Below are positions 4,590-57,999 of a DNA stretch of 64,000 nucleotides, piece after piece (position 1 is the stretch's first letter; each line of letters begins with the position of its first letter). Under the pieces are notes generated by a model. That model was not told the origin of the DNA. It ran no database searches and saw only the letters and a list, made by a program, of their open reading frames with translations. Source of the DNA: an uncultured bacterium (GTDB lineage Bacteria; Verrucomicrobiota; Kiritimatiellia; RFP12; UBA1067); the NCBI GenBank assembly GCA_902779565.1, contig CACZCD010000001.1:3929-67928 (forward strand). Direction: 5' to 3'. The position numbers and the translations under genes were made by a program.

Positions 4590-4605
4590 AGTCTCCTTGA
4601 CGGTC

Positions 4606-4640
4606 AGTTGGTAGTTGATAGTTGGTGGTTGATTTGTCTC
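4606..4640 (-). repeat. Heptamer tandem repeat forming the 5' leader of the nucleotidase gene (mRNA sense ACCAACU/AUCAACU x4)
   Basis: The plus strand reads AGTTGGT AGTTGAT AGTTGGT GGTTGAT TTGTCTC. This is near-identical in architecture to 25361-25400, upstream of the esterase gene. Confidence 0.8.
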
Positions 4641-4705
4641 ACGCAGAGGCGCAGAGGACGCAGAGAGAAATTTCGGAGTTGTGACTCCGCTCAAAAAATA
4701 ACATG

Positions 4706-4777
4706 GATTCCACCTTTCCACTTTTCCACCTTTCCACCATTCCACCTTTCCACTTTTCCACCTTTCAACCTTTCAAC
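4706..4777. repeat. Nine exact-length 8-bp tandem units NNTTCMAC (minus-strand sense GTKGAANN)
   Basis: gaTTCCAC ctTTCCAC ttTTCCAC ctTTCCAC caTTCCAC ctTTCCAC ttTTCCAC ctTTCAAC ctTTCAAC. The U32 stop codon (4765-4767) lies inside unit 8. Confidence 0.9.
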
Positions 4778-7427: not shown

Positions 7428-7652
7428 CGCGGGAAAGGCGCTTGTGCTTGTGTTTGTTGCCAGTCCGTGGCCGCGTCCGTTGTAGCCCGTTGCCTGTCCG
7501 TTAGGCGTCCGTATTAGCCCGTGTGAAGTCCGTAATCTGCCTGAAGCCTGTCCATGATATGTCCGTGGGTAGTCCGTGGTGTGTCCGTCTATGGGAGGGC
7601 GAGTGTCCTCGTGAAACGCCTCAAGTCCGTAATGCGTCCTTCTCGTATCCGT
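7428..7652. repeat. Array C: GTCCGT (complement of ACGGAC) hexamers at about an 11-bp period, plus a terminal block that is an inverted copy of 23224-23287
   Basis: Cores start at 7463, 7475, 7485, 7496, 7507, 7517, 7528, 7539, 7550, 7561, 7572, 7583, 7605, 7625, 7636 and 7647, with degenerate positions at 7594 and 7616. Segment 7428-7490 equals the reverse complement of 23224-23287 except for one T indel. Confidence 0.9.
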
Positions 7653-11717: not shown

Positions 11718-14700
11718 TCAAGGCAAATATGGACGAATGCAGACGAAATTGACGCCCAGGCGCTCACCCTTGGACGCGGCCTCGTCCGTGATCACGAGTT
11801 CCGTTTCGCCGCGCTCGGCCGCAAACACGACCTGATGCAGGTTGATCCGCCCGTATTTGCCCTTCTTCTTGCTGACCTTCGTGCTGCGGTCAACATATGA
11901 CCAGCTGAGTTCGGGAAGCAACCGCACACCGTCCTTGAAGATGGCCTTAAGCGGAATTTCGCGCGGGTTGGCCTTTCCGGCCTTCATGTCGTCCACATCA
12001 AACGTGGCGTACCTGAGAACGTATGTCCTCCCAGCGACAAGGCCGCAGACCGACTGCGTAAGGTTGTTCGCGGTTTCGCCGCGCTTGAACGAAGCGAAGG
12101 TGTCGCCGCATCCAGTTCTGCCCGCCAGATAACGGTTTTCGGCCCACTCGGCAAGCTTGGGGCATTCGTCAAGCGTCACGTCCCCATGCACCTTCCACGG
12201 CCCGAAAGCGTGCTCGAAATCGCCGTTCCGGAGATGGCCCGGGATGTAGCGCAGACCATACTGCTCCGCAATCGAATCGGTGCGTCCCTCTATGCAGTAG
12301 TGCCGCATCAGGCGGAACGACCAGCGCAGCGTATCGTCATCGGCATGATGGGCGCCCCAGTAACCGGCGGCGACGAGACCATCGCATCGCGGGTCGGTGG
12401 CGAGCGCGTGTATCTGCATCGCGAGATACGCGTTGTAATCGACCTCGGGATGGTGCGCGATCGAAAGCTGCAGAAGCCCCGTGAAGTTCCCACTGACCAC
12501 GCCCAGGCAGTCCTGGCAGAACGGATGCGTATCGCGATACAGCCCCACGCCGACAATCATGGATTCGATGGCCGCAAGCGCCTCAGCCTCCGTCTTTTTC
12601 GTGCGCATATAGCGCTCGTTGAGGAGAAGTCCGCGCCCATGGCCGGCATTCGCAATCGCCGCGAACATCTCGGACTCAATCGGCCGCCGCGTTGGCGACG
12701 CGATCACCCAGGTGCAGACCGTCCGCTCCGTGTCGCGTTCCGCGCAGAACTTCTCGATGGCGTCTATGAACTCCATGTTGGTCTTGTCGTTCTTCGGGCG
12801 GAGTCCCTGTTCGTCGAGCGTGATGCCGTCGCATGCGCGCTGGTTCAGCCCCGTCGATCTGCCGATGTTCCTGCTCATCCTCTCGGCCGTGCCGAGCGTC
12901 CTCACGTTCGCGAGCCACTGCCGCCCGAGGTCGTGCAACCGCCCGATGCTCTCCTTGGGCGCAGGCCCGCCGTTCATCGTCGTCACGCTTGGAACCACGT
13001 AGCGCCAGTAGAAGTCCCAATCGTAGCTCTCCTTGAGCGGCAGCTTGCGCGCGTAGGGGGCATAACAGATGATCATGGGGATCTCGCGCACCGCAATCCG
13101 CCCGGCGCCCTTGACGGCAAGCTGGTGCTCGCCTTGAGAAACAAGCCGCACCGTCTCCAGGGCGGGCGTGCCGTTCGTTATCACGCACTGCCCGTCAAGG
13201 CTTACCTCCGCGCTGTCAGCACCCGACACTCCGATGAACACCCATCCGTGTCTCCGCGTCTCGAACAGAAACTCTCCGGACGTCTCCTCCCCTGGCATTT
13301 TGGCGTCCAGCACCTCGGTCACGTAGTTGTTGAGTCGTTTGCGCCGCTCGGGATGCTTGATCTCCTGCACGGTCTCCACGCCGTACCGATACTTCTTCTC
13401 GTGTATTGCCGTTCCATCGCTGCGGCGCACCAGCGAAACCGTCATACAACCGGAATCGGCATTCTCCGGTAACGTGAAGAACATCTCGTCGCGCACAAGC
13501 GGTGCCCGCAGTTCGCCGCCCCATCCTTCGGAAGATATGAAGACGTCGCAAGTGCTCAGATCGGCGCCGCCCGGCAACTCCCCGAAAAAGCGAAACGAGA
13601 AACGCCGGTCGTCGCTTCTGATCCGCGCAAGCCGGCGGCTCCAAGGCACGAAGCGGGGCTTGCCGTCCACGGATTCGACGGTCCTGTCGGCATCCGAATG
13701 GGCAGTCCAGAATATGGCCGGCCTCAGATCGACATCGCCATCTGCGAGCGTAAACTTCACGTCCTCGAGCTTCACGTTGTCGGCGCAGTCGATGTAGAGG
13801 CCGAATGCCGGCAGGATTGAGGACCCGAAGCTGACCGCAGCATCAGGATACGCTCCCGGCAGCTTCGGCACGGGCTTTTCCATCGCCTCCTTGCTCTTCT
13901 CCTCCCCGGCACCATGGCATGTGATCTTCACGTTCCGCAACGTTACGTTCTTCGCGCGGCATCCGTCAACGCCGGTGATGGAGCTCGCCACAACGCCGTC
14001 CGCCTCGCCCGTCACGTTCTCGATCACGATGTCGCGCAGGATGTAGCTTTTGCCCGGCGACACTCCGGTTGAACGCCCGGTGCGCGTGCCGCCGCGCACG
14101 AATATCGGAACCTTCGCGCCATTCTCAAACGTTATACCGCTGTACCGCACCTGCTCCACCATTCCACCGTCCACGCACTCAACGGAGATGGCCGAGTTGG
14201 CAACGCCGAACGGCGCGCGCTTCGTCGCGCGCCAGAAATACCTGTTCTTCCCGCGATGTTTGGGATTCTTCGAAAGACAGTCGCGCCTCGCGGCCTCGCA
14301 GCGACAGTCTTCGAAGCGGATATTGCGCACCGTGCCGTGGCTGGCCGTGCCTATCTTGAACACGTTGCATTGCGAGCGCCCCACGCAGCGGCGGATCAGG
14401 ACGTTCTCCACGGTGTAGTCTGGGTCGTTGGATTTTATGCAGAACGCATCGTCGCCCGAATCGACATCGCAGTCCTCGATAAGCACGTTCTTCGCCTCGA
14501 TGTCGAACCCGTCGTTGAAGGAATCGGCATGGCTATCGACCTTCACGCGCCGCGCCACAACGTCCTCGCAGCGCTTGAACACGATTCCCCAGCAGGCCGC
14601 GTCGCGCAGGGTGAAATCCTCCAGACGCACCCCCTTGCAGTCCCCGAAGAACAGTCCGCGTGCGTTCAGGCCCTCGCGGCAACCCTTGACGTCCTTCGGG

Positions 14701-25346: not shown

Positions 25347-25360
25347 GTTAATCCTTTTTT

Positions 25361-25433
25361 AGTTGATAGTTGATAATTGATGATTGGTGGTCTAGTCTCA
25401 ACCTTTCCACTTTTCCACCTTCCCACTTTTAAC
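25361..25433. repeat. Composite intercistronic repeat: heptamer leader (AGTTGAT x4-5) plus octamer units (NNTTCMAC x5)
   Basis: The plus strand reads AGTTGAT AGTTGAT AATTGAT GATTGGT GGTCTA then GTCTCAAC CTTTCCAC TTTTCCAC CTTCCCAC TTTTAAC. It abuts the AI-2E stop at 25435 and the esterase RBS. Confidence 0.85.
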
Positions 25434-33297: not shown

Positions 33298-33660
33298 CTA
33301 CCAGGAGCGGTAATAGACCGGCGGAGGCGGCGGGGGCGGCGGCGCCACCACAACCGGGGCCGGGGAATAGACCGGGGTGCTATAGACCGGCGTGCTATAG
33401 ACCGGTGTGCTATAAACCGGCGTGCTATAGACTGGCGCAGGCGCCACGACAACTGGCGGACGAACGATGCTGTTCACGATCGCCGCAGTGCCGAGAGCGG
33501 CTCCCGCAATGCCCCATCCGCAATGGTGGTGATGATGATGGTAGCCATGGCCACCATGGAACCTAGGACCGCCATGGAACCCACCATGGAACCCCGGACG
33601 GGCGAACATCACACCTGCCGTTGCCACGACTGCCAGCATTACTATCAGTTTCTTGTTCAT
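33298..33660 (-). CDS. Small secreted His-rich / Pro-rich repeat protein
   Basis: 120 aa. Signal peptide, GFHGGFHGGPRFHGGHGYHHHHHHC, a hydrophobic segment, (PVYST)x5, and a polyproline run. Confidence 0.7.
   Translation of the reverse strand: MNKKLIVMLAVVATAGVMFARPGFHGGFHGGPRFHGGHGYHHHHHHCGWGIAGAALGTAAIVNSIVRPPVVVAPAPVYSTPVYSTPVYSTPVYSTPVYSPAPVVVAPPPPPPPPVYYRSW
33362..33435. repeat. 15-bp tandem repeat (NGTGCTATAGACCGG, 4 full units plus 1 partial) encoding PVYST units
   Basis: Read directly inside the His-rich protein gene. The repeat is in frame (15 bp equals 5 codons). Confidence 0.9.
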
Positions 33661-33792: not shown

Positions 33793-36700
33793 TTAGGGCT
33801 TTACGCGCACGGTTTCAGCGGTTGAGTGTGCCGTGAACTCGGGCGCGTACATGCATTGGATCGTCGCAAGCCCGCCGATAAACACGCCGCGCTGCTGCAC
33901 GCGATACGACGTCTCAAGAACGAACACGCCCTTGTTGAGACAGTCGATGTAGTAGTGCGTGGCCGTATCCTTCGTGGACTGATAATAACCCACGCCATCG
34001 CGCCAGCGGTACGACGACAGCACATCCTCCGGCTCCGCGCACGCAGGCCGCTCGTCAGAGAGATGCACGAACTCGTACGTGCGGTCGCTCGTGATCTCAA
34101 GCCGCGCCACGATCTCGTCGCCCGGCTCAAGCACGCCATCGATCGACGTGAGCCGTGTCCCATCCGCGCCCTTCACCTTCTTGTAGTACTTCTTCTCCAC
34201 CCGCAACTCCTTCGGCTCGTGCGCGCGTACCTTAAGGACATCCTCAAAGTACGTCCAGTGGACGCCGCCCCACGCAACGCCCTTCTCGCCCGCACCCGTA
34301 AACGTGATCTCGCCCATCTCGGGCCTGATCTGCGCCGCGGCGTAGCGGTGCGAATACATCCCCGTGCCCGCCTCGGCGTTCGCCACCGGCACCTTCTCGC
34401 CCGCCAGCGTGACCTCGGCCAGCTTGTCGCCCGCCAGCAGATCCGTCCCGCCGCCCAGAAGGAGCGCATAGATCGCGTCCACCGTCGCGGCGGTCGTCGT
34501 CCAATCCTGCGTCTGCTTCTGCTTCAGGAGCCACACGTTGCAGGCATCTGCGCTCTCCTCGTCGCGCGTCACCTCGCGGAACGCCTCAATGATCAGCGCC
34601 TGCGTCGAGACGGGCGCGGCGAACACGCTGCACGAGAAGAAGGACGACCTCTTCCAGTATAGGCCGAGTTCCTCTGAAAGGACGCCCCGCTCCTTGATCG
34701 ACGCCATGATCTTCCGCGCGAACTTTTCCTCGCCCATGCGCTTCAAGGCGATGGCCGCCAGCGCCTGCGAGCTGAGGCCGAAGTCCGTCCACTCCTCCTT
34801 GAGATGCTTGACGAAGAGCTTTGCCGGCTGCGCATCCTTCGCGGCGGCGACGCCCTTGAACGTATGGAGGTAGAGCCAGCGAATGTCGAAGCCATCCACA
34901 TGGAACTTGATGCCCAGTCTCTTCGCCTCCTTGAGCCGCTCCTTCACATCCTCAGAAACGAACGCGTCAAGTGCTTCCACCGCCTCCGCAAAGAAGTCGG
35001 GATACGTCCTCTGCGCCAGGAAGTTGAGCCGCGCGAACCCCGTCAGGATATAGAGCGAGATGCCGGGCGCGGACGGCCCGCCCGGGAACCACGGCCAGAG
35101 TCCGCCGCCACACCGCGCGAGTCGCAACTTCTCAAGGCACTTTTCCTGCTCACCCGCCAGACGGTCGGCGGCGAAGAGTTCACCAAGCCGCGCGCGGGCT
35201 GCGCTTTCGTGCGCCGCCTCACGGACCCACGGCGTCGCTTCAAGCGCAATCGCCTTGAGGTGTTCATCCGTCTCAAGCGGGCTCTTCAGCGTTTCGCCGC
35301 CCGCCGCCTTCCACGCGTCGAACGTGGCGCGGATGCGCGGATCGGCGTTTGCGATGTACTGTCCCAGCGCGTTCGCATAGTAGCGGCTGAACGTCTGCTC
35401 GCAGCATTCGTGCGGGAACTCCATCAGGTACGGAAGCGACAACACCGCGTACCACGCCGGACGCGACACGGCGCGCACCGTGAGATCCTGATGGCGGACC
35501 GTCTCAGACCCCTTGCTCGCCAGCAGGTTCTCGAACCGAAACGATTTCGTCGCCGCGCCACGCACGTTGAGCTGCACGGCCTCGCGCACCATCACGCGGC
35601 GCGCCAGCACCGGCAGCACGCCCTCTTCGCCGTCCGCGAACGCCGCGCCCTTCGCGCGCGCGACATATTTGAGATAGCCGCACCCATCCGGGATCCGCAA
35701 CGGGAACTCGAACGTCTTCGATTCGTGCGGAACCAGGTTGAAAGGTTGAAAGGTTGAAGCGTTGAAAGGTTGAAGCGTTGACGGGTTGGCATTTTCAGCA
35801 GAACTTTTCAACTCTTCAACCTTCAACTCTACAACTCCCTGCTGCGGCGCGTCCTCGGTGTTCGTCACCTTGACGGCAAAGAAGAAGTTGTCACCTTCGC
35901 GCACGAAACGCGGTGCGTTCGGTTCGCACATGAGCGGCTTCGTCGTCACGATCTCGTTGTTGCGGAAGATGTCGCCGCGAAGCGCGTTGTCATGCGCGAC
36001 CATCAGGAACTTCCAGCCCGTGAGCGCGTCCGGCACCGTGAACGAGAACGACACCTTCCCGTCCGCATCCGTCTCCAGGTTCGGGAAGAAGAACGCCGTC
36101 TCCTTCAGGTTCGTGCGCGGCGGCGCATCCGGTTCCTTCTCGGACTTCGCGGATGGTGCAGCACCACACACCGCCACCGTTTCTTCTTCCAAGACGCACC
36201 TTTCATTCATCACGCCCATCCCGGCCGCGGCGGACTTGCAGACCATGCCGCCCCGTCTTCGCAGTCTGCCATACTCGTACAGCGACCGCCACGAAGGCCA
36301 TCGGAAGTTGGAGAACCACGTGGACTTGCTTGGGAACCGACCGCCGAGATCCATCAGCTCCGTGGTCGTATTCTGGATTGCCGGACTTCCGAGCCAGCGC
36401 GTCCAGGGCGTAAAGTGACTTGAAAAACCGAGCGACACATCATGCCATTTGTACGCATCGAGCGAACGGTCGTACATGAAAGCGAGCACTTCCGCAGGGC
36501 CCGACACCTTGAACGTCCATATTTCCTTGTTGCCGGGATTGAGCTTGCTCGTCAGGTGCTCCGCCGTGATATCCAGATACTTGTTGTCCCACGGCACATT
36601 CACGCAGGTGCTGTCGCAATAGATGCGGTTCTCGCGCACGAAGGTGGTCTCAATCCTCACTTCGCCGCGATGCTCCTCCTGGATCGGCAGCTCGAAAAAC

Positions 36701-39663
36701 CAAGATGGGCTCTCCCCGCCGATCGTCTTTTCAAGAAGCGTCTTCCGGTTGTTCGTCACCTTCACGCGGCACCAGCCCGTCGCATAGCCCGAGCCCCAAT
36801 AGGCGCGGAGCGTCTCGCCGACCTTCACCATCCCCCTCTCCGAGCAGAAGTAGGTCGGCACGGCAATTCCAAGGCCTTTCGCGGACGGATCGAACACGAA
36901 GACTTCTGCGTAGTCCTTCACCGTCTTGCCGTTCGGATCCTTCGCTTCGAACATGAGACGATAGGCACCGACACCGAGCTTGATCTCGCCCGTCCACTTC
37001 TCCGGCTTGTCCGTGGAGATATCGAGCGACAGCACCTCTTCGCCCATCTTCCACGTCTTCCAGTCCCAAGGACCTTTCACGTTCCGGTCAGAGCCGTAGC
37101 GGCCCTCACCCGCCGGCTTGCGAACCGGCCTTTCGGGTGCGACGAGCCGATAGGCCTTCAGCGTGCCCTTGACCGGCAGCGGCGCACCTGCAAGCGAGTT
37201 GATCGTCACACGCGGCGCAACAGGCACGTCAGGCGTCTGCCATTTTTCGCCGGTCCACACGCTTGCGCGCCAGGCCACGGTTCCGATCTCGAACGACGAC
37301 TCCGCCGTGTGCTCCTCGCCCGTTTCGTCCGTCACCTCCGCCGTCACCGAAAACTCGAACGACGGATCGCCCGACAGGTCGGCTTTAGGAGAAGCGACGG
37401 GTGTGAACGTCACCTCGAAGACGCCGTTGCCGTCCGTCTTCGCCTCTCCCTTCCCGACAAAGTTTTCACCGTCATCGTCTGACGTGCCACCGAACCATCG
37501 CCACCAGCTGGGATAGCGCGTGGCGCGCTCCACCGACCATTTGACCTTCGCGTTCTGCACGGGAAGCCCCGAGTAGGTGAGCGCCTTGCCCGTCACCGTC
37601 ACCGGCACGCCCAGCGTCCCCTGCTCCGGCGCCGCCTCGAACGAGACGGTGAACTTCGGCCGCTTGTACTCCTCCACGTTCACGCGCTTCTGCGATTCGC
37701 CTGTCTTGCCATCCTTCAGGACGACGCGCGCCATCACCGTGTATTCACCGGTAAGCCGATCCGTCGGCGCCGTGAAAGTGTAGGTGAACGATCCCCACTT
37801 GTTCGTGCGGAGGCGTTTCGCGGCGACTTCCTTATCGTTCGGATCGCTGAATGTCACGAGTACCAGTTCATCCGGCAGCGTGTGGAAATCCTGCGTATGC
37901 GGATTCGCGTGGTAGGCGATGCCCTTCACCCGGATCTCCTGACCCGGACGGTAGATCGCACGGTCGGTGAAGAGATCCATGTATTCGTACTTCGGCGCTT
38001 CGTACGATTCGCTGCCCGATCCCTCGCTGCCGAGGGAAAGCACTTCGTCATTCTCCTTGATGACGCGAACGTTCCGCATCAGCGCGTTATAGTCGTCCTT
38101 CTTCGCCACGTCGGCGACAAAACGTCCATCCTTGTCCGTCACATACGTCTCGCGCAGCACCAGAACGCGTCCGCCTTGGGGCGGGTACCCCCAAAGCTCC
38201 ACCTTCGCGTCCGCGACCGTCTCACCGGACTCCGCACGATAGACCGTGCCGCCGAACGCGCCGTTGCCCGTCTCAAGGGCGAGCGCCAGCGATGTGACGG
38301 TGACATACTGCGCGAACAGCGGCTGCTTGTCCGAACCGAAGGCCTCGTTCCCGGCCGCGTAGAGGACATAGTGTCCAACCTTCAGATCCGACGGCGCCGT
38401 GAACTTGAACGTCTGCTCGGTGTAGTCCGGCTTCAGCGGAAGCACTTCCTTCCACTCCTTGACCGGGCGGCGCGACAGGTACTTGTTCTTCATCTCATCG
38501 CGAGCGCCCCCCCGTCCGGCCGAGCCCATCGAGGTGTCATTGACGAGGTCCTGGAACGAAACCGGCACAAGGCGGAAGTGGACTTCCGTGAGGTTCTTCG
38601 CGCGAACCTCAATCTCCGGCCAGGGTGCACACCAGTTGCGTTCAATCTTGCACGCCAGCTTCTTCCCCTCGATGGCGGCGACAATGTTGGCGCATTTCTT
38701 CCCCCCCGGCGAATCGGACCACTTCGCCTCGTATTCAGCGGCAAGATCATGCGCCGCGAGAAGATTGGTTTTACAGAGCTGCTCCGCCTTCAGTGCCGCC
38801 GCGTAGGCGACGGCTTCGGTTTTCCCCTCGTACCGCTTGATGAAATTATCCAGAAACGCCCCGAACACGGCTTCGCGCGCCTTCTCTGGCTGGTTGTCGA
38901 ACGAACGGATGTACTCGGCGGCGTCCAGCTCAGCCATCGCGAGCGCATCGGCGTTTCCGTCTCCTTGATGAAAATCAATCAGCCGTCGATAGAGCGCGAG
39001 ACCCTTTTCAAGCGTCTTGTCCGGAATCGTCTCGCCGTAAAAGCTGATGGCATCCCGCACGGCGAAATCGTAGAGTGTCGGCACATACGTTTTCGGATAG
39101 TCGCCACGATGGAAAATCTCCGTCCAGTCCGCGAGCATCATCCCCTTCAGCTCTTCGGCATAAGCGAACACCTTCGCGAACTGCATCTCGAGCGTGTCGG
39201 CGATCTTCTCGGGCGACCATGGCGGCATCTTGTCGGCGGCGGCGGCCTCGTCCAGCTTCGTCGGCGCGGCGCCGCCCCAGCGCCACCGGCGCGAGTTCTC
39301 CTGGTAGGTGTGGGCGAGGTGGAGCTGGAGGACGGCCTGAAGCGGCGCGGGCTGCGCATCAACCGACGCGGCAAAGGCCGGCAGCCAATTCTGCGGCAGT
39401 TCGTCTCGAAACTCCTTCATCGCCTGCTCGCGGACAAGAAAGGCCCGTGCGGCATCAGGCCAACGCGCGGCGGCGACGGCCTCGCGCGCAATCTCCTCCA
39501 CCTTGTTTGTGACGGTGCGCGGCAGTCCGTTTTCCTGCGCCTCCTCGACGGCCTTCCAGGCCTTGGCGAAATTGTACGCTCCCATGACAGCTCCCTTCAG
39601 GGTGACGGAGGCGGCAAGAATCGCCAGCGCCCATACGGTTCTTTTTCGGCTTATTAGACTCAT
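33793..39663 (-). CDS. Alpha-2-macroglobulin family protein (large bacterial A2M with a thioester motif)
   Basis: 1956 aa. MG-domain architecture, the thioester-type motif FPHECCEQT (CxEQ), and C-terminal A2M receptor-like region. Start placed at ATG 39663 (MSLISRKR..., signal peptide). Confidence 0.9.
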   Translation of the reverse strand: MSLISRKRTVWALAILAASVTLKGAVMGAYNFAKAWKAVEEAQENGLPRTVTNKVEEIAREAVAAARWPDAARAFLVREQAMKEFRDELPQNWLPAFAASVDAQPAPLQAVLQLHLAHTYQENSRRWRWGGAAPTKLDEAAAADKMPPWSPEKIADTLEMQFAKVFAYAEELKGMMLADWTEIFHRGDYPKTYVPTLYDFAVRDAISFYGETIPDKTLEKGLALYRRLIDFHQGDGNADALAMAELDAAEYIRSFDNQPEKAREAVFGAFLDNFIKRYEGKTEAVAYAAALKAEQLCKTNLLAAHDLAAEYEAKWSDSPGGKKCANIVAAIEGKKLACKIERNWCAPWPEIEVRAKNLTEVHFRLVPVSFQDLVNDTSMGSAGRGGARDEMKNKYLSRRPVKEWKEVLPLKPDYTEQTFKFTAPSDLKVGHYVLYAAGNEAFGSDKQPLFAQYVTVTSLALALETGNGAFGGTVYRAESGETVADAKVELWGYPPQGGRVLVLRETYVTDKDGRFVADVAKKDDYNALMRNVRVIKENDEVLSLGSEGSGSESYEAPKYEYMDLFTDRAIYRPGQEIRVKGIAYHANPHTQDFHTLPDELVLVTFSDPNDKEVAAKRLRTNKWGSFTYTFTAPTDRLTGEYTVMARVVLKDGKTGESQKRVNVEEYKRPKFTVSFEAAPEQGTLGVPVTVTGKALTYSGLPVQNAKVKWSVERATRYPSWWRWFGGTSDDDGENFVGKGEAKTDGNGVFEVTFTPVASPKADLSGDPSFEFSVTAEVTDETGEEHTAESSFEIGTVAWRASVWTGEKWQTPDVPVAPRVTINSLAGAPLPVKGTLKAYRLVAPERPVRKPAGEGRYGSDRNVKGPWDWKTWKMGEEVLSLDISTDKPEKWTGEIKLGVGAYRLMFEAKDPNGKTVKDYAEVFVFDPSAKGLGIAVPTYFCSERGMVKVGETLRAYWGSGYATGWCRVKVTNNRKTLLEKTIGGESPSWFFELPIQEEHRGEVRIETTFVRENRIYCDSTCVNVPWDNKYLDITAEHLTSKLNPGNKEIWTFKVSGPAEVLAFMYDRSLDAYKWHDVSLGFSSHFTPWTRWLGSPAIQNTTTELMDLGGRFPSKSTWFSNFRWPSWRSLYEYGRLRRRGGMVCKSAAAGMGVMNERCVLEEETVAVCGAAPSAKSEKEPDAPPRTNLKETAFFFPNLETDADGKVSFSFTVPDALTGWKFLMVAHDNALRGDIFRNNEIVTTKPLMCEPNAPRFVREGDNFFFAVKVTNTEDAPQQGVVELKVEELKSSAENANPSTLQPFNASTFQPFNLVPHESKTFEFPLRIPDGCGYLKYVARAKGAAFADGEEGVLPVLARRVMVREAVQLNVRGAATKSFRFENLLASKGSETVRHQDLTVRAVSRPAWYAVLSLPYLMEFPHECCEQTFSRYYANALGQYIANADPRIRATFDAWKAAGGETLKSPLETDEHLKAIALEATPWVREAAHESAARARLGELFAADRLAGEQEKCLEKLRLARCGGGLWPWFPGGPSAPGISLYILTGFARLNFLAQRTYPDFFAEAVEALDAFVSEDVKERLKEAKRLGIKFHVDGFDIRWLYLHTFKGVAAAKDAQPAKLFVKHLKEEWTDFGLSSQALAAIALKRMGEEKFARKIMASIKERGVLSEELGLYWKRSSFFSCSVFAAPVSTQALIIEAFREVTRDEESADACNVWLLKQKQTQDWTTTAATVDAIYALLLGGGTDLLAGDKLAEVTLAGEKVPVANAEAGTGMYSHRYAAAQIRPEMGEITFTGAGEKGVAWGGVHWTYFEDVLKVRAHEPKELRVEKKYYKKVKGADGTRLTSIDGVLEPGDEIVARLEITSDRTYEFVHLSDERPACAEPEDVLSSYRWRDGVGYYQSTKDTATHYYIDCLNKGVFVLETSYRVQQRGVFIGGLATIQCMYAPEFTAHSTAETVRVKP
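35737..35835. repeat. 99-bp imperfect-palindromic octamer-repeat element, in frame within the A2M gene
   Basis: The plus strand reads (GTTGAAAG/GTTGAAGC)x5 GTTGACGG GTTGGCAT-tttcagcagaac-TTTTCAAC TCTTCAAC CTTCAAC TCTACAAC. It encodes VVELKVEELKSSAENANPSTLQPFNASTFQPFN. Confidence 0.85.
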
Positions 39664-39670
39664 GCACGCT

Positions 39671-39699
39671 ATTATACAGAAATGCCGCCCGTCAGGCAA
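39671..39699 (-). promoter_or_regulatory. A2M promoter TTGCCT-N17-TATAAT; the -10 ends 7 nt from the ATG (leaderless geometry)
   Basis: The minus strand reads TTGCCT gacgggcggcatttctg TATAAT agcgtgc ATG, with no SD. Confidence 0.55.
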
Positions 39700-43523: not shown

Positions 43524-45440
43524 TCACAACGCGTCTGTCATGAATGTATGCGCCACCGTCCAAGGCGCGCTCTTGATCCGTTTCATGCGCATCAAAAGCG
43601 AAAGGCGGTGGCGTTCAAGCTCCGCATCGCCCCGTGCCGGCAGTTCGCCGAGACGGCGTCGGATCGCATCGCCCCATAGCCGCCGCAGAAAATCCTCAAG
43701 AATGCGCGCTGGGTCCAACTCGGAAAGCGATGCGCGCTCCCGCGACAGGAACACGCCCTCCAAAAGCGCACCATCCGCCGCGGAAAGCGTCCCGCGGAGT
43801 TCCGCCATCGCCTGCTCGTTCCCGCGCGTCTCCTGCACATAGGCGTGAACGAACCCGCACGTCAACGCATGCTGGAAAATCGTGTCGGGCGCATAGGATT
43901 CCAGCATCTCCGTCAGCTGCCCATCCGGTCCGTTTCCGAACAGAAACTCCATGAGTGCCATCTCTGTCCGAGGCGGCGGATTGTTCTCCGGAGCCGCAGC
44001 GTCTTCCGAGGGTTGAGAGTTGGGAGTTGAGGGTTGAGGGCTTGCCGCGCCGAAGCCTTCGGCGGAGGCGGGTTGCGTACTTCCTCTTCCCTCTTCCCTC
44101 TTCCCTCTTCCCTCTTCCCTCTTCCCTTTCTCTAGATCCTCCTCAAGGGCGGCGACCGGTATCTTCAGAAGTGTGGAAGCCTCCTGCAGCAAACTGGCGC
44201 GCATGACCGCGCTCGAACTGCACCTGACCAACGCCAAGACAGCGCGCGCCGCGCGGGAGATCGCATCGTAGGAGTCAGGTGTCTGCTCCATCGCGCGGGC
44301 GATGCGTACTTGAAAGGCGACCAGCGACTCAGCCGAATCAAGGCAGGCCTGAAACGCCGCCGGACCTTTCGTGCGAAGCAGAGAATCTGGGTCTTCGCCC
44401 GGCGGAAGACTTGCCACGCGCACCAACAATCCGGCGGCCAGCATCTCGCCGCCCGTGCGAATCGCCGCCTTCTGTCCAGCGGCATCGGCGTCAAAGACCA
44501 GCACGGCGGCATCGGCGACCTTCTTCAGGATCTGGACATGCTCCTTCGTGAAGGCCGTCCCCTGCGACGCGATCGCACGGGAGAATCCCGCCGCATGGCA
44601 GCGGATCACATCGATCTGCCCTTCGCAGACGATGGCCTCGCGAACGGGCTTGGCGTTGGCGATCTTCCCCGCCGCAAGATCGAACGCATAGAGAACATCC
44701 GACTTCCGGAAGATGAGCGTCTCGGGCGAATTGACGTACTTGCCGCCGCGCATCTTCGTCTTATCCGTCTCAAGCGTCCGTCCCGAGAACGCGATCACGC
44801 GTCCAGACCGGTCACGGATCGAGAACATGACGCGTCCGGCGAACGGCGAGTACCAGCGTCCGCCCGGATACTTCGGCGGACGCAGCACGCCGGCCGCCTC
44901 AAGCTCTTCGGTGGTGAAATGATGCTTCTCCGCCCATTTGAGCATCGCCTCGGCCTGCTGCGGCGCGTAGCCGATCTGGAACTGCTCCGCGATCTCGTCC
45001 GGGATGTCGCGCGACGCGAGATAGTTGCGCGCACGCGCCGCCTCAGCGGCCGTCTTGAGGCAACGCCGGTAGAACGCCGCCAACTCGGCGTGGAGCACAA
45101 GTTGGCGCTTGCGCGCGGCCGCTTGCGGATCGCTATTCGTCTCCTCGATGGTGATGTTCGCCGCCGCCGCCAGCTTCTTCGCCGCCTCCACGAAGCCCAG
45201 CCCCTCGTACTTCATCACGAACTTGATCACGTCGCCGGACTCGCCGCAACCGAAGCAGTGGTAGAATCCCTTCGCCGGCTGGATGTTGAAACTCGGCGTC
45301 TTTTCATGATGAAACGGGCAGCAGGCCTTGTACGACCCACCTGCCCGTTTCACTTGGATCCCGTAGCTGGCGATCAAATCTGCAAGGTCCGTACGGGCCT
45401 TGATCTCTTCGATCGTCTGCTCCGAAATGCCGAAGGCCAT
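43524..45440 (-). CDS. dnaG: DNA primase
   Basis: Zn ribbon CPFHHEKTPSFNIQPAKGFYHCFGCGESGD, a Toprim domain (EGQIDV...VFDADAAG), and a C-terminal helicase-interaction region. Confidence 0.95.
   Translation of the reverse strand: MAFGISEQTIEEIKARTDLADLIASYGIQVKRAGGSYKACCPFHHEKTPSFNIQPAKGFYHCFGCGESGDVIKFVMKYEGLGFVEAAKKLAAAANITIEETNSDPQAAARKRQLVLHAELAAFYRRCLKTAAEAARARNYLASRDIPDEIAEQFQIGYAPQQAEAMLKWAEKHHFTTEELEAAGVLRPPKYPGGRWYSPFAGRVMFSIRDRSGRVIAFSGRTLETDKTKMRGGKYVNSPETLIFRKSDVLYAFDLAAGKIANAKPVREAIVCEGQIDVIRCHAAGFSRAIASQGTAFTKEHVQILKKVADAAVLVFDADAAGQKAAIRTGGEMLAAGLLVRVASLPPGEDPDSLLRTKGPAAFQACLDSAESLVAFQVRIARAMEQTPDSYDAISRAARAVLALVRCSSSAVMRASLLQEASTLLKIPVAALEEDLEKGKREEGRGKREEGRGSTQPASAEGFGAASPQPSTPNSQPSEDAAAPENNPPPRTEMALMEFLFGNGPDGQLTEMLESYAPDTIFQHALTCGFVHAYVQETRGNEQAMAELRGTLSAADGALLEGVFLSRERASLSELDPARILEDFLRRLWGDAIRRRLGELPARGDAELERHRLSLLMRMKRIKSAPWTVAHTFMTDAL
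44012..44126. repeat. Heptamer tandem repeats in the dnaG linker: (GTTGRGR)x4, palindrome GCCGAAG-C-CTTCGGC, (TCTTCCC)x5
   Basis: Read directly. It encodes EKGKREEGRGKREEGRGSTQPASAEGFGAASPQPSTPNSQPSE in the primase frame. Confidence 0.9.
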
Positions 45441-56111: not shown

Positions 56112-57890
56112 TCACCGGTTCGGCAACTCATAAAATCGAGTCTGGATCGGTGCAAGCTCGATCAGAATGTTGCGCTGCGGGAACCCATTGCCAAGATCGA
56201 GCGAACAAGAAACCGTTTCACGCGACGAATTCACCGCCACCAAATGAACTTTGTCTTCATGTCGCCACGCGCGCACGCCCACTGCTTTGGGGAGCTTTGC
56301 CGCTCCCGGGAGCACCACATCTTCATCAAGCATGACAGGTATCATATCGGCAATTTCACGGGCCACTTTCAGCACTTCGCCGAGTACGCGATCCTTGTCC
56401 GCCGGCTTCAGGAATGAAAGCAGGCTATGCATAGAATACCACGTAAGACCATTTGCCCCTCCTGCTATCGCCTGCCAAGCCATGTTGCGCATCTCGTTTT
56501 CTGTTGGCATGCGCCGCACATGGTTACCGCGCGCACGCTCATCTGCGACACCCCGGTACCAAGTCCAATCAAAGGATTGTAGCGTCATTATAAGCGGCTT
56601 CGAGGCGAAGATTCCGCTGTTCAGCTGACGCGTGTAGTCAAGAACCTGCCCTATCTCCGCACCGCCGCCTATCGGATAGGGATCGGCGCAGATCACATCT
56701 TGGCAATCCAGAAACATCCTGGCGTAGTAAATCCTGTCGAAACAGGAACGCGTGGGGTGGTCAGGGTCGTGCAAACGTGCGAGCCGTTCATGTTTGCGCA
56801 TCTTGTCTGCATTCCCAAAAGCGTGGGGTTCATCGTAGAGATACCACATCAACACACAGGGACGCCCCTTTAACTCCTGTAGTTTCATCACAAGTCCGCC
56901 ATCATCGTGTGGGAGCCTTGCTATGGCCATTTTACCGCACTTCTCAATCCAATCCAGCAATTTGCCATCTACACCGTTCATCACAAATGAATTGTAACTG
57001 CACTCTTCAAGCATTCTGCGTACATCCGGACCCAGTTTCAAATCGGCTCCCCACAAGGTCGTTGCCAAAGGCCAGAACTTCTTTCCGCGTACAACAAACT
57101 TTCCGTCCGGCCCGCACCAGACCTCTGGATGCGTCAAGCCGTTGGTCCTGGCAAACTTCATCGTGGCCGACCATAGCTCACCCGTTCCGTCCGACCGTAA
57201 AAGCACGAATCTGAAATCGTTAGTCCCCATTGCCATGTCGCAGACCGGCACTTTCGCCAAAGCGGAATGTTCCACTCCGGAAAACTCCATCCGTATGCGT
57301 CTGGCATGTCCGTCAGCTCCGGGATATTCCATCTCAGCGCGACAGCCCAAAGTCGAGAATCCACTGTTGAATGACATCGTGAATGTGACATCACCATCCC
57401 ACGCTTCGTCCCGGTAAGCGGAGTTTACAACATAATCAACTGGCGAGGGATCAAACGGCTCTACCTTCGCATCGGCCAACCAAACCTTGCCAACCGCCTT
57501 TTTCTCGGTATATTGCTCAAAGTAGGCGTACACGGCATTTGTTGGTATGGTCACGCTCGTATCGGCAAGTTCGTACCAGTCCGCGCTGCCCTTTTTCCCA
57601 CGGACAGAAAAACCACCGTGACACGTCTCCGTTCTGCACACCTTTCCGTGCGCATCATAAATCCAGAAACCGATGCGGGCCTCGCTCTCCCTTCCGTCCT
57701 TAAGCCGCAGATTATCCTGCTTGAAGCGGCACGACACCCTGTACCGCTTGCCCGGCACAAGATCAACCTTTGTCTTGAAAGAGAACGGGGCTTCATGGAG
57801 GCCGTTCTTGGATTCATTAACGGCATTCGCAAATCCGCACAGTCCTGCTGAACAGATCGCTGCAACAATTACCAACTTATGGATTTTCAT
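56112..57890 (-). CDS. Secreted protein, putative clan GH-A-like glycoside hydrolase with an N-terminal CBM-like domain
   Basis: Signal peptide MKIHKLVIVAAICSAGLCGFANA. A WYLYDEP motif resembles the NEP acid/base strand of TIM-barrel hydrolases. Visibly lower GC than the flanks. Function tentative. Confidence 0.6.
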   Translation of the reverse strand: MKIHKLVIVAAICSAGLCGFANAVNESKNGLHEAPFSFKTKVDLVPGKRYRVSCRFKQDNLRLKDGRESEARIGFWIYDAHGKVCRTETCHGGFSVRGKKGSADWYELADTSVTIPTNAVYAYFEQYTEKKAVGKVWLADAKVEPFDPSPVDYVVNSAYRDEAWDGDVTFTMSFNSGFSTLGCRAEMEYPGADGHARRIRMEFSGVEHSALAKVPVCDMAMGTNDFRFVLLRSDGTGELWSATMKFARTNGLTHPEVWCGPDGKFVVRGKKFWPLATTLWGADLKLGPDVRRMLEECSYNSFVMNGVDGKLLDWIEKCGKMAIARLPHDDGGLVMKLQELKGRPCVLMWYLYDEPHAFGNADKMRKHERLARLHDPDHPTRSCFDRIYYARMFLDCQDVICADPYPIGGGAEIGQVLDYTRQLNSGIFASKPLIMTLQSFDWTWYRGVADERARGNHVRRMPTENEMRNMAWQAIAGGANGLTWYSMHSLLSFLKPADKDRVLGEVLKVAREIADMIPVMLDEDVVLPGAAKLPKAVGVRAWRHEDKVHLVAVNSSRETVSCSLDLGNGFPQRNILIELAPIQTRFYELPNR

Positions 57891-57999
57891 TTCCCCTCCC
57901 CCTTCTTCGCCGCCGGCTGCGCCAAGGCAAGACAAACTGTGGCAAAGAAAATTCCTTTCACGTTGTTCCTCCCTGTCGCGCGTACCCGCGCCATTGACA

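What the first reader, a model, noticed from the sequence alone, without database searches (positions are those of the whole stretch)
35737..35835. 99-bp octamer-repeat palindromic element inserted in frame in the alpha-2-macroglobulin gene
The plus strand reads GTTGAAAG GTTGAAAG GTTGAAGC GTTGAAAG GTTGAAGC GTTGACGG GTTGGCAT - tttcagcagaac - TTTTCAAC TCTTCAAC CTTCAAC TCTACAAC. The left arm is built of GTTGA units and the right arm of the complementary TCAAC units. The total is 99 bp, or exactly 33 codons. It is translated as VVELKVEELKSSAENANPSTLQPFNASTFQPFN in a loop between beta-rich MG-domain segments. The same octamer family (GTKGAAAG) forms the intergenic arrays at 4706-4777 and 25395-25433. 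A repeat family that is intergenic elsewhere but sits in frame and without stops inside a large ORF recalls the Rickettsia palindromic elements, which are known to insert in frame into protein-coding genes.
Basis: partly seen in the sequence, partly recalled or inferred. Interest (0 to 1): 0.65.

Follow-up and report, generated by a model that had tools for sequence, protein, structure and literature searches.

The report
Slippage-prone repeat hairpin in macroglobulin loop
The 99-base run of eight-letter repeats inside a rumen bacterium's protease-trap (alpha-2-macroglobulin) gene is real. It is most likely a fast-evolving repeat hairpin that grew in place in a tolerant surface loop, not a jumping element. 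It belongs to a lineage-wide habit of filling unconstrained DNA with 7-9-base repeats.

Summary
Window 35737-35835 holds seven GTTGAARG-type octamers, a 12-nt spacer and four complementary TCAAC units. It lies in frame in a 1956-aa alpha-2-macroglobulin (A2M) gene of a rumen Kiritimatiellae bacterium.

The "RPE-like 33-codon insertion" reading is only partly supported.
- Both ends of the tract encode conserved beta-strand residues (VVELKVEEL and QPFNL).
- Only about 18-20 residues form a low-confidence loop.
- Outgroup orthologs have a loop of similar size (stretch of 67 vs 71 aa).

Among about 150 orthologs this loop is the gene's most variable spot.
- It is 3-45 residues long.
- Unrelated alleles occur within clusters of >=90% identity.
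- Many alleles are hairpins of 7-9-nt tandem repeats built from different units.
- Unit-number changes occur: in-frame changes for 9-nt units, and -8/+8 nt frameshifts that split the gene in two relatives.

The DnaG linker in this window (44008-44127) shows the same pattern. GTTGAARG arrays are common in intergenic DNA of this clade (22 arrays in 0.71 Mb) and absent from 1.35 Mb of outgroup loci.

Best explanation: slippage and template switching in unconstrained sequence, resembling the cyanobacterial STRR repeats. Adaptive phase variation or true mobility is not shown.

The parts
33793..39663 (-). Alpha-2-macroglobulin gene. The ATG at 39663 gives 1956 aa; the open frame extends to a TTG at 39699. 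It has a signal peptide and a thioester motif CCEQ at aa 1420-1423 (window 35395-35406).
   Evidence: ORF list and translation. Pfam MG2 564-656, A2M 1189-1280, bMG10 1820-1942. 120 orthologs from 100% to 36% identity. Motif coordinates.
35737..35835 (-). The 99-nt tract as flagged. It is two complementary arms of 7-8-nt units around a short spacer and translates in frame as aa 1277-1309.
35805..35835 (-). The 5' arm in coding sense, (GTTGWAGA)-type units of irregular length 8/7/8/8. It encodes the conserved beta-strand VVELKVEEL(K). It is open only in the frame used; the other two frames contain stops.
   Evidence: Conserved in the ortholog alignment. AF2 strand 92-103 with pLDDT about 93. 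Frame analysis.
35749..35808 (-). Hypervariable loop KSSAENANPSTLQPFNASTF (aa 1286-1305), consisting of the spacer plus most of the 3' octamer array (CTTCAACC/CTTTCAAC). The model has low confidence here.
   Evidence: pLDDT below 50 for model residues 106-117. Loop length is 3-45 aa among orthologs. 48 of 90 mismatches against a 91%-identical ortholog, versus about 6 of 90 background.
35716..35748 (-). Return beta-strand QPFNLVPHESK. The first codons (35737-35748) are the last octamer units and coincide with the conserved Q-P/S-F motif.
   Evidence: Alignment. AF2 residues 121-130 have pLDDT about 90. Coordinates.
44008..44127 (-). A second in-frame repeat hairpin module in the window. (GGGAAGA)n, a GC-rich core hairpin and (CCCTCAA)n lie in the DnaG primase linker, translated EKGKREEGRGKREEGRGSTQPASAEGFGAASPQPSTPNSQPSE.
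4606..4777 (-). Intergenic spacer made of repeat arrays, read on the minus strand: (GTTGAAAG)2(GTGGAAAG)n starting in the last codons of a peptidase U32 gene, a small hairpin, (CCTCTGCG)3, (ATCAACY)4, then RBS and ATG of a 5'-nucleotidase gene.
25360..25433 (-). A second intergenic spacer with the same layout: (GTGGAAAG)~4, then (ATCAAYT)~4, then AAAAAAGGATTAAC-ATG of a secreted esterase gene.

Best explanation
The tract is the current state of a fast-evolving palindromic short-tandem-repeat module. It occupies the tip of a beta-hairpin in the MG7-like (PF00207) domain of a secreted or periplasmic A2M in a rumen Kiritimatiellae bacterium.

Shown:
- The two ends of the tract encode conserved strand residues.
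- The middle is an unconstrained loop with low model confidence.
- The loop is the most divergent segment of the gene between close orthologs, and it exists as many unrelated alleles.
- Many alleles are hairpins whose two arms are complementary arrays of 7-9-nt units, with different units in different lineages.
- Unit number changes between close relatives.
- The same kind of module fills the DnaG linker and intergenic spacers in this clade.

Inferred mechanism:
- Slipped-strand mispairing expands or contracts an arm.
- Intrastrand template switching between the complementary arms (quasi-palindrome correction, an established mutational pathway) keeps the arms complementary.
- Growth may have been seeded on the partly complementary conserved codons GAAGAGTTG (E-E-L) and CAACCTTTC (Q-P-F) at the loop base.
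- Homologous recombination then moves loop alleles between related backbones.

Selection only filters the outcome. The stop-free C/T-rich orientation (CTTTCAAC)n is the long regular arm. The purine-rich arm is short and irregular, which keeps TGA out of frame.

Consequences: a hypervariable S/T/P/Q/F/N-rich loop tip. Because the unit is 8 nt, a change of one or two units truncates A2M before its thioester domain.
For: 1. The ends are conserved and the loop is size-variable but not a net insertion. The stretch FFFAVK..IPDGCGY is 54-97 aa in Kiritimatiellae, 67 aa in outgroups and 71 aa here.
2. AF2 places strands at 92-103 and 117-128 and gives pLDDT below 50 for 106-117. The fold matches the C3/C5/bacterial A2M MG region.
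3. WIN against a 91%-identical ortholog has 48 of 90 mismatches in the loop window versus about 6 of 90 background. A 79% ortholog with the same allele type is no more diverged there than elsewhere, 21 of 90.
4. Repeat hairpins with different units score z of -4.2 to -9.2 in 6 alleles. Short alleles have z near 0.
5. Clusters at >=90% identity contain 3-4 unrelated loop alleles. They also contain in-frame copy-number variants of 9-nt arrays.
6. The octamer ACTCCTCC is x3 in L117 and x5 in L118 against x4 in intact L089. This splits the gene into two otherwise intact ORFs. P0267 is frameshifted in another repeat module near aa 981.
7. The DnaG linker is repeat-encoded and hypervariable in orthologs at >=76% identity but ordinary in distant ones.
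8. Arrays with periods of 7/8/9 nt occur at 5.6/5.2/4.5 per 100 kb in Kiritimatiellae loci against 1.9/0.3/0.8 in outgroup loci. The GTTGAARG(G) family has 22 arrays against 0.
9. The antisense strand folds as well or better in 8 of 11 alleles, and G-U pairs show no sense-strand bias (32 vs 42). This fits a DNA-level process, not a selected mRNA structure.
10. The E-E-L and Q-x-F codons are 7/9 complementary in 8 of 32 sequences listed, including a repeat-free allele, L001.
11. (GTTGAAAG)n has TGA in all three frames while (CTTTCAAC)n is open in all three. Simulated changes of +/-8 or 16 nt give stops at aa 1352-1392, before CCEQ at 1420.
Against: - No copy-number variation is seen for this particular allele. 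The three DNA copies (WIN, L081, L082) and about 8 proteins with the WIN-type loop have the same number of units.
- The same few unit families recur across species, including GTTGAARGG, CGCAGAGAG, GCATTCA and AATCAAAC. Purely random slippage would not predict this. It hints at function, sequence-specific generation or spread.
- The seed complementarity is only 4-6 of 9 in many alleles.
- Template switching itself is inferred, not observed.
- The 140 nt around the element are identical between WIN and L082, although the flanks differ by 8.6%. This requires recombination or constraint on top of slippage.
- Frameshifted alleles come from metagenome assemblies, one at about 4.6x coverage. Similar frameshifts appear in essential DnaG, so some may be artefacts.
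Confidence: 0.6

Rival explanations
1. RPE/MITE-like mobile element. A palindromic non-autonomous element of the GTTGAARG family transposed in frame into the A2M gene, and the protein tolerates the extra peptide.
For: - The unit family is dispersed and clade-specific: 22 arrays in 0.71 Mb against 0 in 1.35 Mb.
- GC drops over the tract.
- In relative L119 a genuine dispersed palindrome (TTGGTAGGGGCG...GCCCCTACCAA) sits in frame in this same loop and in a second loop of the same gene. Further copies lie in L111.
- In L101, inverted (GTTGAAAG)11 and (CTTTTCAAC)~13 arrays flank a 23S-rRNA-IVS-protein gene, like the ends of a cassette.
- Loop types are non-monophyletic on the gene tree.
Against: - Both ends of the tract encode conserved residues, so there are no element boundaries.
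- No target-site duplication is visible in the flanks.
- No second copy of the arm-spacer-arm unit exists in the window or in 0.7 Mb of relatives. Only unit-level k-mers match.
- The intergenic arrays in the window lack the complementary arm.
- Outgroups have a loop of similar size.
- The L120 allele has diverged in step with the rest of the gene, as expected for vertical descent.
Confidence: 0.13
2. Adaptive contingency locus with diversifying selection. The octamer array is maintained because slippage switches A2M on and off, and because loop alleles are exchanged to vary a functional surface.
For: - The unit is not a multiple of 3 and lies inside an ORF.
- Alleles with -1 and +1 unit split an otherwise intact gene in two relatives.
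- Several unrelated alleles occur within clusters at >=90% identity.
- A 140-nt identical tract sits in a background that differs by 8.6%, which suggests allele transfer.
- The bait region is the other divergence hot spot in the same gene.
Against: - The same repeat-driven variability and the same kind of frameshifts occur in the linker of essential, cytoplasmic DnaG and in intergenic DNA.
- Only 2-3 off-frame alleles were seen among about 150 sequences, all from assemblies.
- The WIN allele has only 5-7 imperfect units and shows no length variants.
- The loop is not the bait region. It lies inside the PF00207 domain about 100 aa downstream of the presumptive bait.
Confidence: 0.15
3. Selected nucleic-acid hairpin. 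The stem-loop in the mRNA (an RNase III site, ribosome pause or stability element) or in DNA is the functional entity, and the peptide is a by-product.
For: - The arms stay complementary although their units differ among alleles.
- Fold z-scores reach -9.
- Literature suggests the analogous cyanobacterial STRR hairpins may stabilise transcripts (PMC2670836).
Against: - Many lineages carry short, hairpin-free alleles with z near 0.
- The antisense strand folds as well or better, and G-U pairs show no sense-strand bias.
- There are no terminator-like or promoter-like sites and no Rfam match.
- The DnaG module is not more stable than shuffles (z of -1.3).
Confidence: 0.08

Closest known systems
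STRR (short tandemly repeated repetitive) sequences of heterocyst-forming cyanobacteria
   Same: Both are tandem arrays of very short units (7 nt in STRR, 7-9 nt here). Both are dispersed at many loci, mostly intergenic, and able to form hairpins, and no function is established for either. STRRs also occur inside a functional gene, in a variable helix of RNase P RNA. Sources: PMC2670836, and the title of Vioque 1997 as cited in PMC2858038.
   Different: The phylum (Kiritimatiellae, rumen) and the unit sequences differ. Here the arrays sit in frame in protein-coding loops and linkers, often as two complementary arms. Here they also show allele turnover and frameshift variants.
Rickettsia palindromic elements (RPE)
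   Same: Both are palindromic repeat-family sequences lying in frame within ORFs at structurally tolerant sites. Both are also found in intergenic DNA (PMC10969869).
   Different: RPEs are discrete elements of about 150 bp with family consensus sequences and conserved encoded peptides. They add a segment absent from orthologs. Here only an 8-nt unit is shared between loci, the ends of the tract are conserved host codons, and orthologs have a loop at the same place.
Simple-sequence contingency loci (phase-variable genes of Haemophilus, Neisseria, Campylobacter)
   Same: Both have intragenic tandem repeats whose unit is not a multiple of three. Unit gain or loss shifts the frame, and this is seen in two relatives.
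   Different: Here the units are long (8 nt), there are few imperfect copies, and a complementary second arm is present. The affected proteins include an essential cytoplasmic one. No evidence of reversible switching or of selection for it was found.
Quasi-palindrome template-switch mutagenesis (established mutational mechanism; from my own knowledge)
   Same: It explains how two imperfectly complementary arms are corrected towards each other, so that they co-evolve without selection for pairing.
   Different: It is known from single-site mutations in model bacteria. It has not been described as a generator of multi-unit repeat hairpins in protein loops.
REP/BIME-type modular intergenic repeats
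   Same: The intergenic composites in relatives are modular mosaics found in either orientation between genes: [CGCAGAGAG]n-[GCATTCA]n-conserved core-[CTTCAACCY]n.
   Different: The modules here are tandem micro-repeats rather than single palindromic units. No RAYT-type transposase was seen in the window.

Membership tests
Rickettsia palindromic element-like in-frame mobile element | Discrete element (~100-150 bp) with a consensus shared by multiple full-length copies | tested here: not met
   Only unit-level matches were found elsewhere in the window and in 0.71 Mb of related loci. No second arm-spacer-arm copy exists.
Rickettsia palindromic element-like in-frame mobile element | Palindromic, hairpin-forming sequence | tested here: met
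   Inverted repeat of 22 nt at 91% complementarity. Fold z of -2.6 to -4.2.
Rickettsia palindromic element-like in-frame mobile element | The insertion adds a peptide segment absent from orthologs | tested here: not met
   Outgroup stretch is 67 aa against 71 aa here. Both ends of the tract encode conserved strands. The excess is about 16 aa over the shortest alleles only.
MITE | Terminal inverted repeats flanked by a target-site duplication | tested here: not met
   The flanks GGAACCAG | ... | TCCCTGCT share no direct repeat. The 'terminal repeats' are host codons.
STRR-like dispersed short tandem repeats | Tandem arrays of ~7-nt units at many dispersed, mostly intergenic loci | tested here: met
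   108 arrays with 6-10-nt units in 621 kb. Densities are 3-17 times those of outgroup loci. The GTTGAARG(G) family has 22 arrays against 0.
STRR-like dispersed short tandem repeats | Membership proper: cyanobacterial heptamer families (such as CCCCAGT; unit sequences from my own knowledge) | tested here: not met
   The units here are GTTGAARG, GTGGAAAG, ATCAACY, GGGAAGA and others, in a Kiritimatiellae genome. The resemblance is analogy only.
Simple-sequence contingency locus | Intragenic repeat with a unit that is not a multiple of 3 | tested here: met
   8-nt units in frame in the ORF.
Simple-sequence contingency locus | Unit-number polymorphism between close relatives that switches the frame | tested here: inconclusive
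   It is seen for another allele at the same loop (x3, x4, x5 units) and at a second module (P0267). It is not seen for the WIN allele. Similar frameshifts in essential DnaG raise the possibility of artefacts.
Simple-sequence contingency locus | Reversible, high-frequency switching with phenotypic consequence | not testable with these tools
   This needs read-level population data or culture work.
A2M bait region | Variable protease-sensitive stretch immediately N-terminal to the PF00207/MG7 domain | tested here: not met
   PF00207 spans aa 1189-1280 and the tract begins at aa 1277, so it lies inside the domain's beta-sandwich. The presumptive bait is at about aa 1125-1182.
Diversity-generating retroelement variable region | A template repeat copy nearby, plus a reverse transcriptase | tested here: not met
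   No second copy of the region exists in the 64-kb window. Variation is by unit number and whole-allele replacement, not by A-site substitutions. No reverse transcriptase was found among the 11 window proteins scanned with Pfam, but that scan was not exhaustive.

The most novel reading that the evidence does not exclude
Rumen Kiritimatiellae may possess a lineage-specific system that generates or spreads a small set of 7-9-nt tandem-repeat families. This could be sequence-specific slippage, a dedicated enzyme or a mobile cassette. The GTTGAARG family would be one such set, and it also flanks a 23S-IVS-protein gene. The system would remodel protein loops and linkers genome-wide. It would produce cassette-like hypervariable loops exchanged by recombination. 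In A2M it would also produce an octamer-based on/off switch upstream of the thioester domain.
Probability: 0.2. Interest if true: 0.8.

Novelty: new variant of a known kind. Interest (0 to 1): 0.55.

Why it matters
If the picture holds, mutational processes at short repeats can rewrite surface loops and interdomain linkers of conserved proteins, including A2M and even DnaG primase. The timescale would be that of strain divergence, and the setting an uncultured, abundant rumen lineage.

There are three practical consequences:
- These loops will be mis-aligned, mis-called or split by gene callers. Two A2M genes and two DnaG genes are already split in public assemblies.
- The arrays are ready-made strain markers.
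- The system offers a natural test of how much random low-complexity peptide a beta-hairpin tip tolerates.

It also extends the STRR phenomenon, unexplained since 1990, to a second phylum and into coding sequence. That gives a new angle on what generates such repeats.

Tried and rejected
- **Rfam and tRNA.** Rfam at gathering thresholds and tRNA/tmRNA scans of the whole window found nothing.
- **Promoters and terminators.** The scan around the tract found nothing, so an intragenic terminator or promoter was rejected.
- **PDB by sequence.** The search gave only weak eukaryotic A2M hits in the MG2 region and did not help place the loop. Foldseek on the AF2 model was used instead.
- **Bait region.** Rejected from the Pfam coordinates.
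- **DGR variable region.** Rejected because there is no template copy and the variation is of the wrong kind.
- **Selected mRNA hairpin.** The sense versus antisense folding comparison showed no sense-strand advantage.
- **Seeding on E-E-L/Q-P-F codons.** Only partly borne out: 7/9 complementarity in some alleles, 4-6/9 in others.
- **IVS-protein genes next to repeat arrays.** A tblastn search of all held loci for further copies found only the single L101 case.
- **Literature.** A search for Kiritimatiellae repeats found nothing relevant. My first STRR search was badly framed and returned noise. The Vioque 1997 paper is not held in the library.
- **Frameshifted alleles as proof of phase variation.** Downgraded after the same kind of frameshift was found in DnaG.
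Full report
**1. What is there**

It holds seven octamers of the GTTGAARG type (35737-92), a 12-nt spacer (35793-35804) and four units built on the complementary TCAAC core (35805-35).

- The repeat finder reports six in-register copies at 8-nt spacing and an inverted repeat of 22 nt at 91% complementarity. TRF finds both arrays.
- GC falls to 0.48-0.50 against 0.62-0.77 around it.
- The tract is in frame on the minus strand in ORF 33793-39699 and is translated VVELKVEELKSSAENANPSTLQPFNASTFQPFN.
- The gene, with a likely ATG at 39663, encodes 1956 aa with a signal peptide. It is a bacterial alpha-2-macroglobulin (A2M): Pfam MG2 564-656, A2M 1189-1280, bMG10 1820-1942, and a CCEQ thioester at aa 1420-1423.
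- The mRNA-sense strand folds into an imperfect hairpin. The z-score is -2.6 for 131 nt and -4.2 for the 111-nt core.

**2. Source**

Identical or near-identical proteins come from cattle-rumen metagenome scaffolds. The closest named relatives are rumen "RUG" genomes and Kiritimatiellae MAGs. Neighbouring genes are ordinary chromosomal ones: rpoB, rpoC, dnaG, a histidine kinase, peptidase U32 and a 5'-nucleotidase.

**3. Is it a 33-codon insertion?**

I aligned 120 orthologs (100% down to 36% identity) and examined the stretch FFFAVKVTN...IPDGCGY. It is 71 aa here, 54-97 aa in Kiritimatiellae orthologs and 67 aa in the three outgroup proteins. The N-terminal nine residues of the "element", VVELKVEEL, align with a conserved strand (GEVELRVEEL and similar). 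The last units encode Q-P-F of a conserved Q-P/S-F-x-L-x-P-H-E motif.

An AlphaFold2 model of aa 1183-1399, built with 23 sequences, gave a mean pLDDT of 68 and a well-modelled core. It puts QQGVVELKVEEL in a strand (pLDDT about 93). The return strand from about residue 121 has pLDDT about 90. Only residues 106-117 fall below 50. The model matches the MG7/MG8 region of C3, C5, CVF and of Salmonella and E. coli A2M.

The tract therefore spans strand, loop tip and strand of a beta-hairpin inside the PF00207 domain. It lies about 100 aa after the presumptive bait region (aa ~1125-1182) and about 115 aa before the thioester. It is not the bait region and not a clean insertion. The loop between E-E-L and Q-P-F is 20 residues here and 3-45 in relatives.

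**4. The loop is the gene's hot spot**

- Against a 91%-identical ortholog (L121), the 90-nt window holding the loop has 48 mismatches versus a background of about 6. Only the bait region (28-32) and the signal peptide approach this.
- Against a 79% ortholog that carries the same loop type (L120), the loop is no more diverged than the rest of the gene (21 of 90).
- Within clusters at >=90% identity, several unrelated loop sequences coexist. For example, the cluster of P0003 contains the WIN-type loop in five members, the P0003 type and a third type.
- On a rough NJ tree the loop types are scattered.
- WIN and L082 differ by 8.6% over about 2 kb yet are identical over the 140 nt that include the tract. 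By my own calculation from those counts, the chance of this is about 3e-6.

Loop alleles therefore turn over much faster than the gene, and they move between backbones or persist as polymorphisms.

**5. What the alleles look like as DNA**

Of about 35 distinct loop DNAs, six fold far better than dinucleotide shuffles (z of -4.2 to -9.2). Each is a pair of complementary arrays of short units, and the units differ between alleles:
- GTTGAAGA / CTTTCAAC (WIN, L091)
- GAGTGGG / ACTCCTCC (L084, L089)
- GTCCTGAAA / GACTTTCAA (L094)
- GAGACGG / CGTCTCA (L096)
- GTTCAAA / ACTTTAA (L103; weaker, z of -2.3)

Short alleles have no hairpin (z near 0). In every case the coding-strand 5' arm is purine-rich and the 3' arm pyrimidine-rich. 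The antisense strand folds as well or better in 8 of 11 alleles, and G-U pairs are not enriched on the sense strand (32 vs 42). There is no terminator-like or promoter-like site and no Rfam match. I read this as a DNA-level process, not a selected mRNA structure.

**6. Evidence for slippage**

- The 9-nt arrays show in-frame unit-number variants among proteins at >=90% identity, for example EPLASLEPLAPLEGLAP versus EPLASLEPLEGLAP, and three lengths of the (S/T-rich)n array.
- For 8-nt units, two independent assemblies have the A2M gene split into two otherwise intact ORFs exactly here. The octamer ACTCCTCC is present 3 times in L117, 5 times in L118 and 4 times in intact L089.
- P0267, on a 54-kb contig, is frameshifted in another repeat module near aa 981.
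- Simulated changes of +/-8 or +/-16 nt in the WIN array stop translation at aa 1352-1392, before the thioester.

Caveats apply. The WIN allele itself shows no length variants in 3 DNA copies and about 8 proteins. L118 has about 4.6x coverage. Two DnaG products in public assemblies are frameshifted in their repeat linker as well. Some of these frameshifts may therefore be artefacts or dead variants, and adaptive phase variation is not established.

**7. It is not peculiar to A2M**

Other A2M loops in orthologs carry repeat-like in-frame segments, at about aa 297, 877-888, 981-986 and 1791. Examples are (AATCAAAC)n read as NQTIKQS and (CACGAAC)n read as HEPRTTN.

In this window the DnaG primase linker (44008-44127) is a second module: (GGGAAGA)n, a GC-rich core hairpin and (CCCTCAA)n. 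Its orthologs at >=76% identity have repeat-encoded, hypervariable linkers of 59-102 aa. More distant ones have ordinary linkers of 50-112 aa.

Because DnaG is essential and cytoplasmic, selection for surface variation cannot be the common cause. Relaxed constraint combined with a repeat-prone mutational regime can.

**8. The clade-wide repeat landscape**

TRF finds 108 arrays of 6-10-nt units in 621 kb of Kiritimatiellae loci. Densities for periods 7, 8 and 9 are 5.6, 5.2 and 4.5 per 100 kb against 1.9, 0.3 and 0.8 in 1.35 Mb of outgroup loci. The Kiritimatiellae sample is centred on A2M, so it is somewhat biased.

The GTTGAARG(G) family occurs as 22 arrays on at least 12 contigs and never in the outgroup loci.

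In the window, two intergenic spacers (4606-4777 and 25360-25433) consist almost wholly of such arrays. Read on the minus strand, (GTTGAAAG/GTGGAAAG)n begins in or just after the upstream gene's last codons. (ATCAACY)n then lies just before the RBS and ATG of the next gene.

In relatives a conserved composite precedes several secreted-protein genes and the A2M gene itself. Its layout is [CGCAGAGAG]n-[GCATTCA]n-core-[CTTCAACCY]n, and the array sometimes abuts the start codon. These arrays lack a complementary arm.

The recurrence of a few unit families across species is not explained by random slippage. It is the main unexplained point.

**9. Mobile elements do exist at this loop in relatives**

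In L119 a palindrome with the ends TTGGTAGGGGCG...GCCCCTACCAA lies in frame both in this loop and in the loop near aa 981. Related copies occur in L111. That element does behave like an RPE.

In L101, inverted (GTTGAAAG)11 and (CTTTTCAAC)~13 arrays flank a PF05635 23S-rRNA-IVS-protein gene between two genes.

These observations keep a mobile component alive for the clade. They do not make the window's tract a discrete element. No second arm-spacer-arm copy exists in the window or in the sampled loci, and there is no target-site duplication.

**10. Mechanism proposed**

Shown:
- a tolerant hairpin tip;
- complementary repeat arms whose units differ by lineage;
- unit-number changes;
- allele replacement within close relatives.

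Inferred:
- slipped-strand mispairing within an arm;
- intrastrand template switching between arms (quasi-palindrome correction), which keeps them complementary;
- possible nucleation on the conserved codons GAAGAGTTG (E-E-L) and CAACCTTTC (Q-P-F), which are 7/9 complementary even in a repeat-free allele but only 4-6/9 in many others;
- homologous recombination spreading alleles.

Reading-frame selection shapes the result. (GTTGAAAG)n carries TGA in all frames while (CTTTCAAC)n is open in all frames. So the long regular array is the C/T-rich one, and the purine-rich arm is short with an 8/7/8/8 rhythm that keeps TGA out of frame.

**11. Comparison with known systems**

The closest analogue is the cyanobacterial STRR: short (7-nt) tandem repeats, dispersed, hairpin-forming and of unknown function (PMC2670836). 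STRRs are also present inside the RNase P RNA gene (title of Vioque 1997, cited in PMC2858038). This tract is not a member, because the phylum and units differ.

RPEs share the in-frame, palindromic and tolerated character (PMC10969869). The tract fails the RPE tests for discreteness and for net insertion.

Contingency loci share the frame-shifting unit, but reversibility and adaptiveness are untested.

I found no description of such repeats in Kiritimatiellae in the paper library searched.

**12. Verdict**

This is a real feature with a reasonable but imprecise first interpretation. It is best filed as a new variant of known kinds: STRR-like dispersed micro-repeats together with slippage-prone intragenic repeats. 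It is interesting mainly for the clade-wide pattern and for the in-frame hairpin architecture.

Noticed in passing
window 44008-44127 (within dnaG, 43524-45440, minus strand): A second in-frame repeat hairpin module lies in the DnaG primase linker: (GGGAAGA)n, a GC-rich core hairpin, then (CCCTCAA)n. Orthologs at >=76% identity have repeat-encoded hypervariable linkers. Two public DnaG products (P0176, P0165) are frameshifted inside the array.
   Followed up: yes
window 4606-4777 and 25360-25433: Two intergenic spacers are made almost entirely of short arrays with the same layout. (GTTGAAAG/GTGGAAAG)n starts at or within the upstream stop codon, and (ATCAACY)n lies just upstream of the RBS and ATG. 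The first spacer also holds (CCTCTGCG)3 and a small hairpin. They may be G-poor leader elements.
   Followed up: partly
L096 1-230, 3820-3990, 4700-5030; L002 300-700; L003 1-260; L004 9600-9960: A conserved modular composite precedes secreted-protein genes and the A2M gene in relatives: [CGCAGAGAG]n-[GCATTCA]n-CCGCCACGCTCCGCCACTTTTCCCTTTACCCTTTCAACTTTAAACTC-[CTTCAACCY]n. The window's 4585-4800 holds the same modules in the opposite orientation.
   Followed up: partly
window 22615-22700, 23027-23252 (+) and 7463-7630 (-): The hexamer ACGGAC is phased every 11 nt in three arrays of 7, about 16 and 9 copies. The window has 80 hits against 44.7 +/- 6.7 expected. The two plus-strand arrays bracket about 330 nt of ORF-free DNA that contains a palindrome, GATGTTCA...TGAACATC. 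This looks like a phased binding-site array.
   Followed up: no
L101 3889-4517: Inverted arrays (GTTGAAAG)11 and (CTTTTCAAC-like)~13 flank a 138-aa PF05635 23S-rRNA-intervening-sequence protein gene (E = 7e-33) between two genes. The layout resembles a cassette with repeat-array ends or an IVS-like stem.
   Followed up: partly
L119 ~14063-14134 and ~12969-13081; L111 ~15964, ~9499, ~9147: A dispersed GC-rich palindrome (TTGGTAGGGGCGTCTC...GCCCCTACCAA) is inserted in frame in two different loops of one A2M gene, with further copies in another contig. This is a genuine RPE-like case in a relative.
   Followed up: partly
L082 ~2200-2420 vs window 35700-35860: The 140 nt spanning the element are identical between two genomes whose flanking A2M sequence differs by 8.6%. 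This suggests a short recombination tract or a strong constraint.
   Followed up: partly
window 33298-33660 (-): A small secreted His-rich protein carries (STPVY)x5, encoded by a 15-nt tandem repeat (33367-33437), plus a poly-Pro tail. It has no Pfam match.
   Followed up: no
window 20244-23361 and 56417-58000: Two stretches of 1.5-3 kb have no convincing ORF by GC3, no Rfam match and no tRNA.
   Followed up: no
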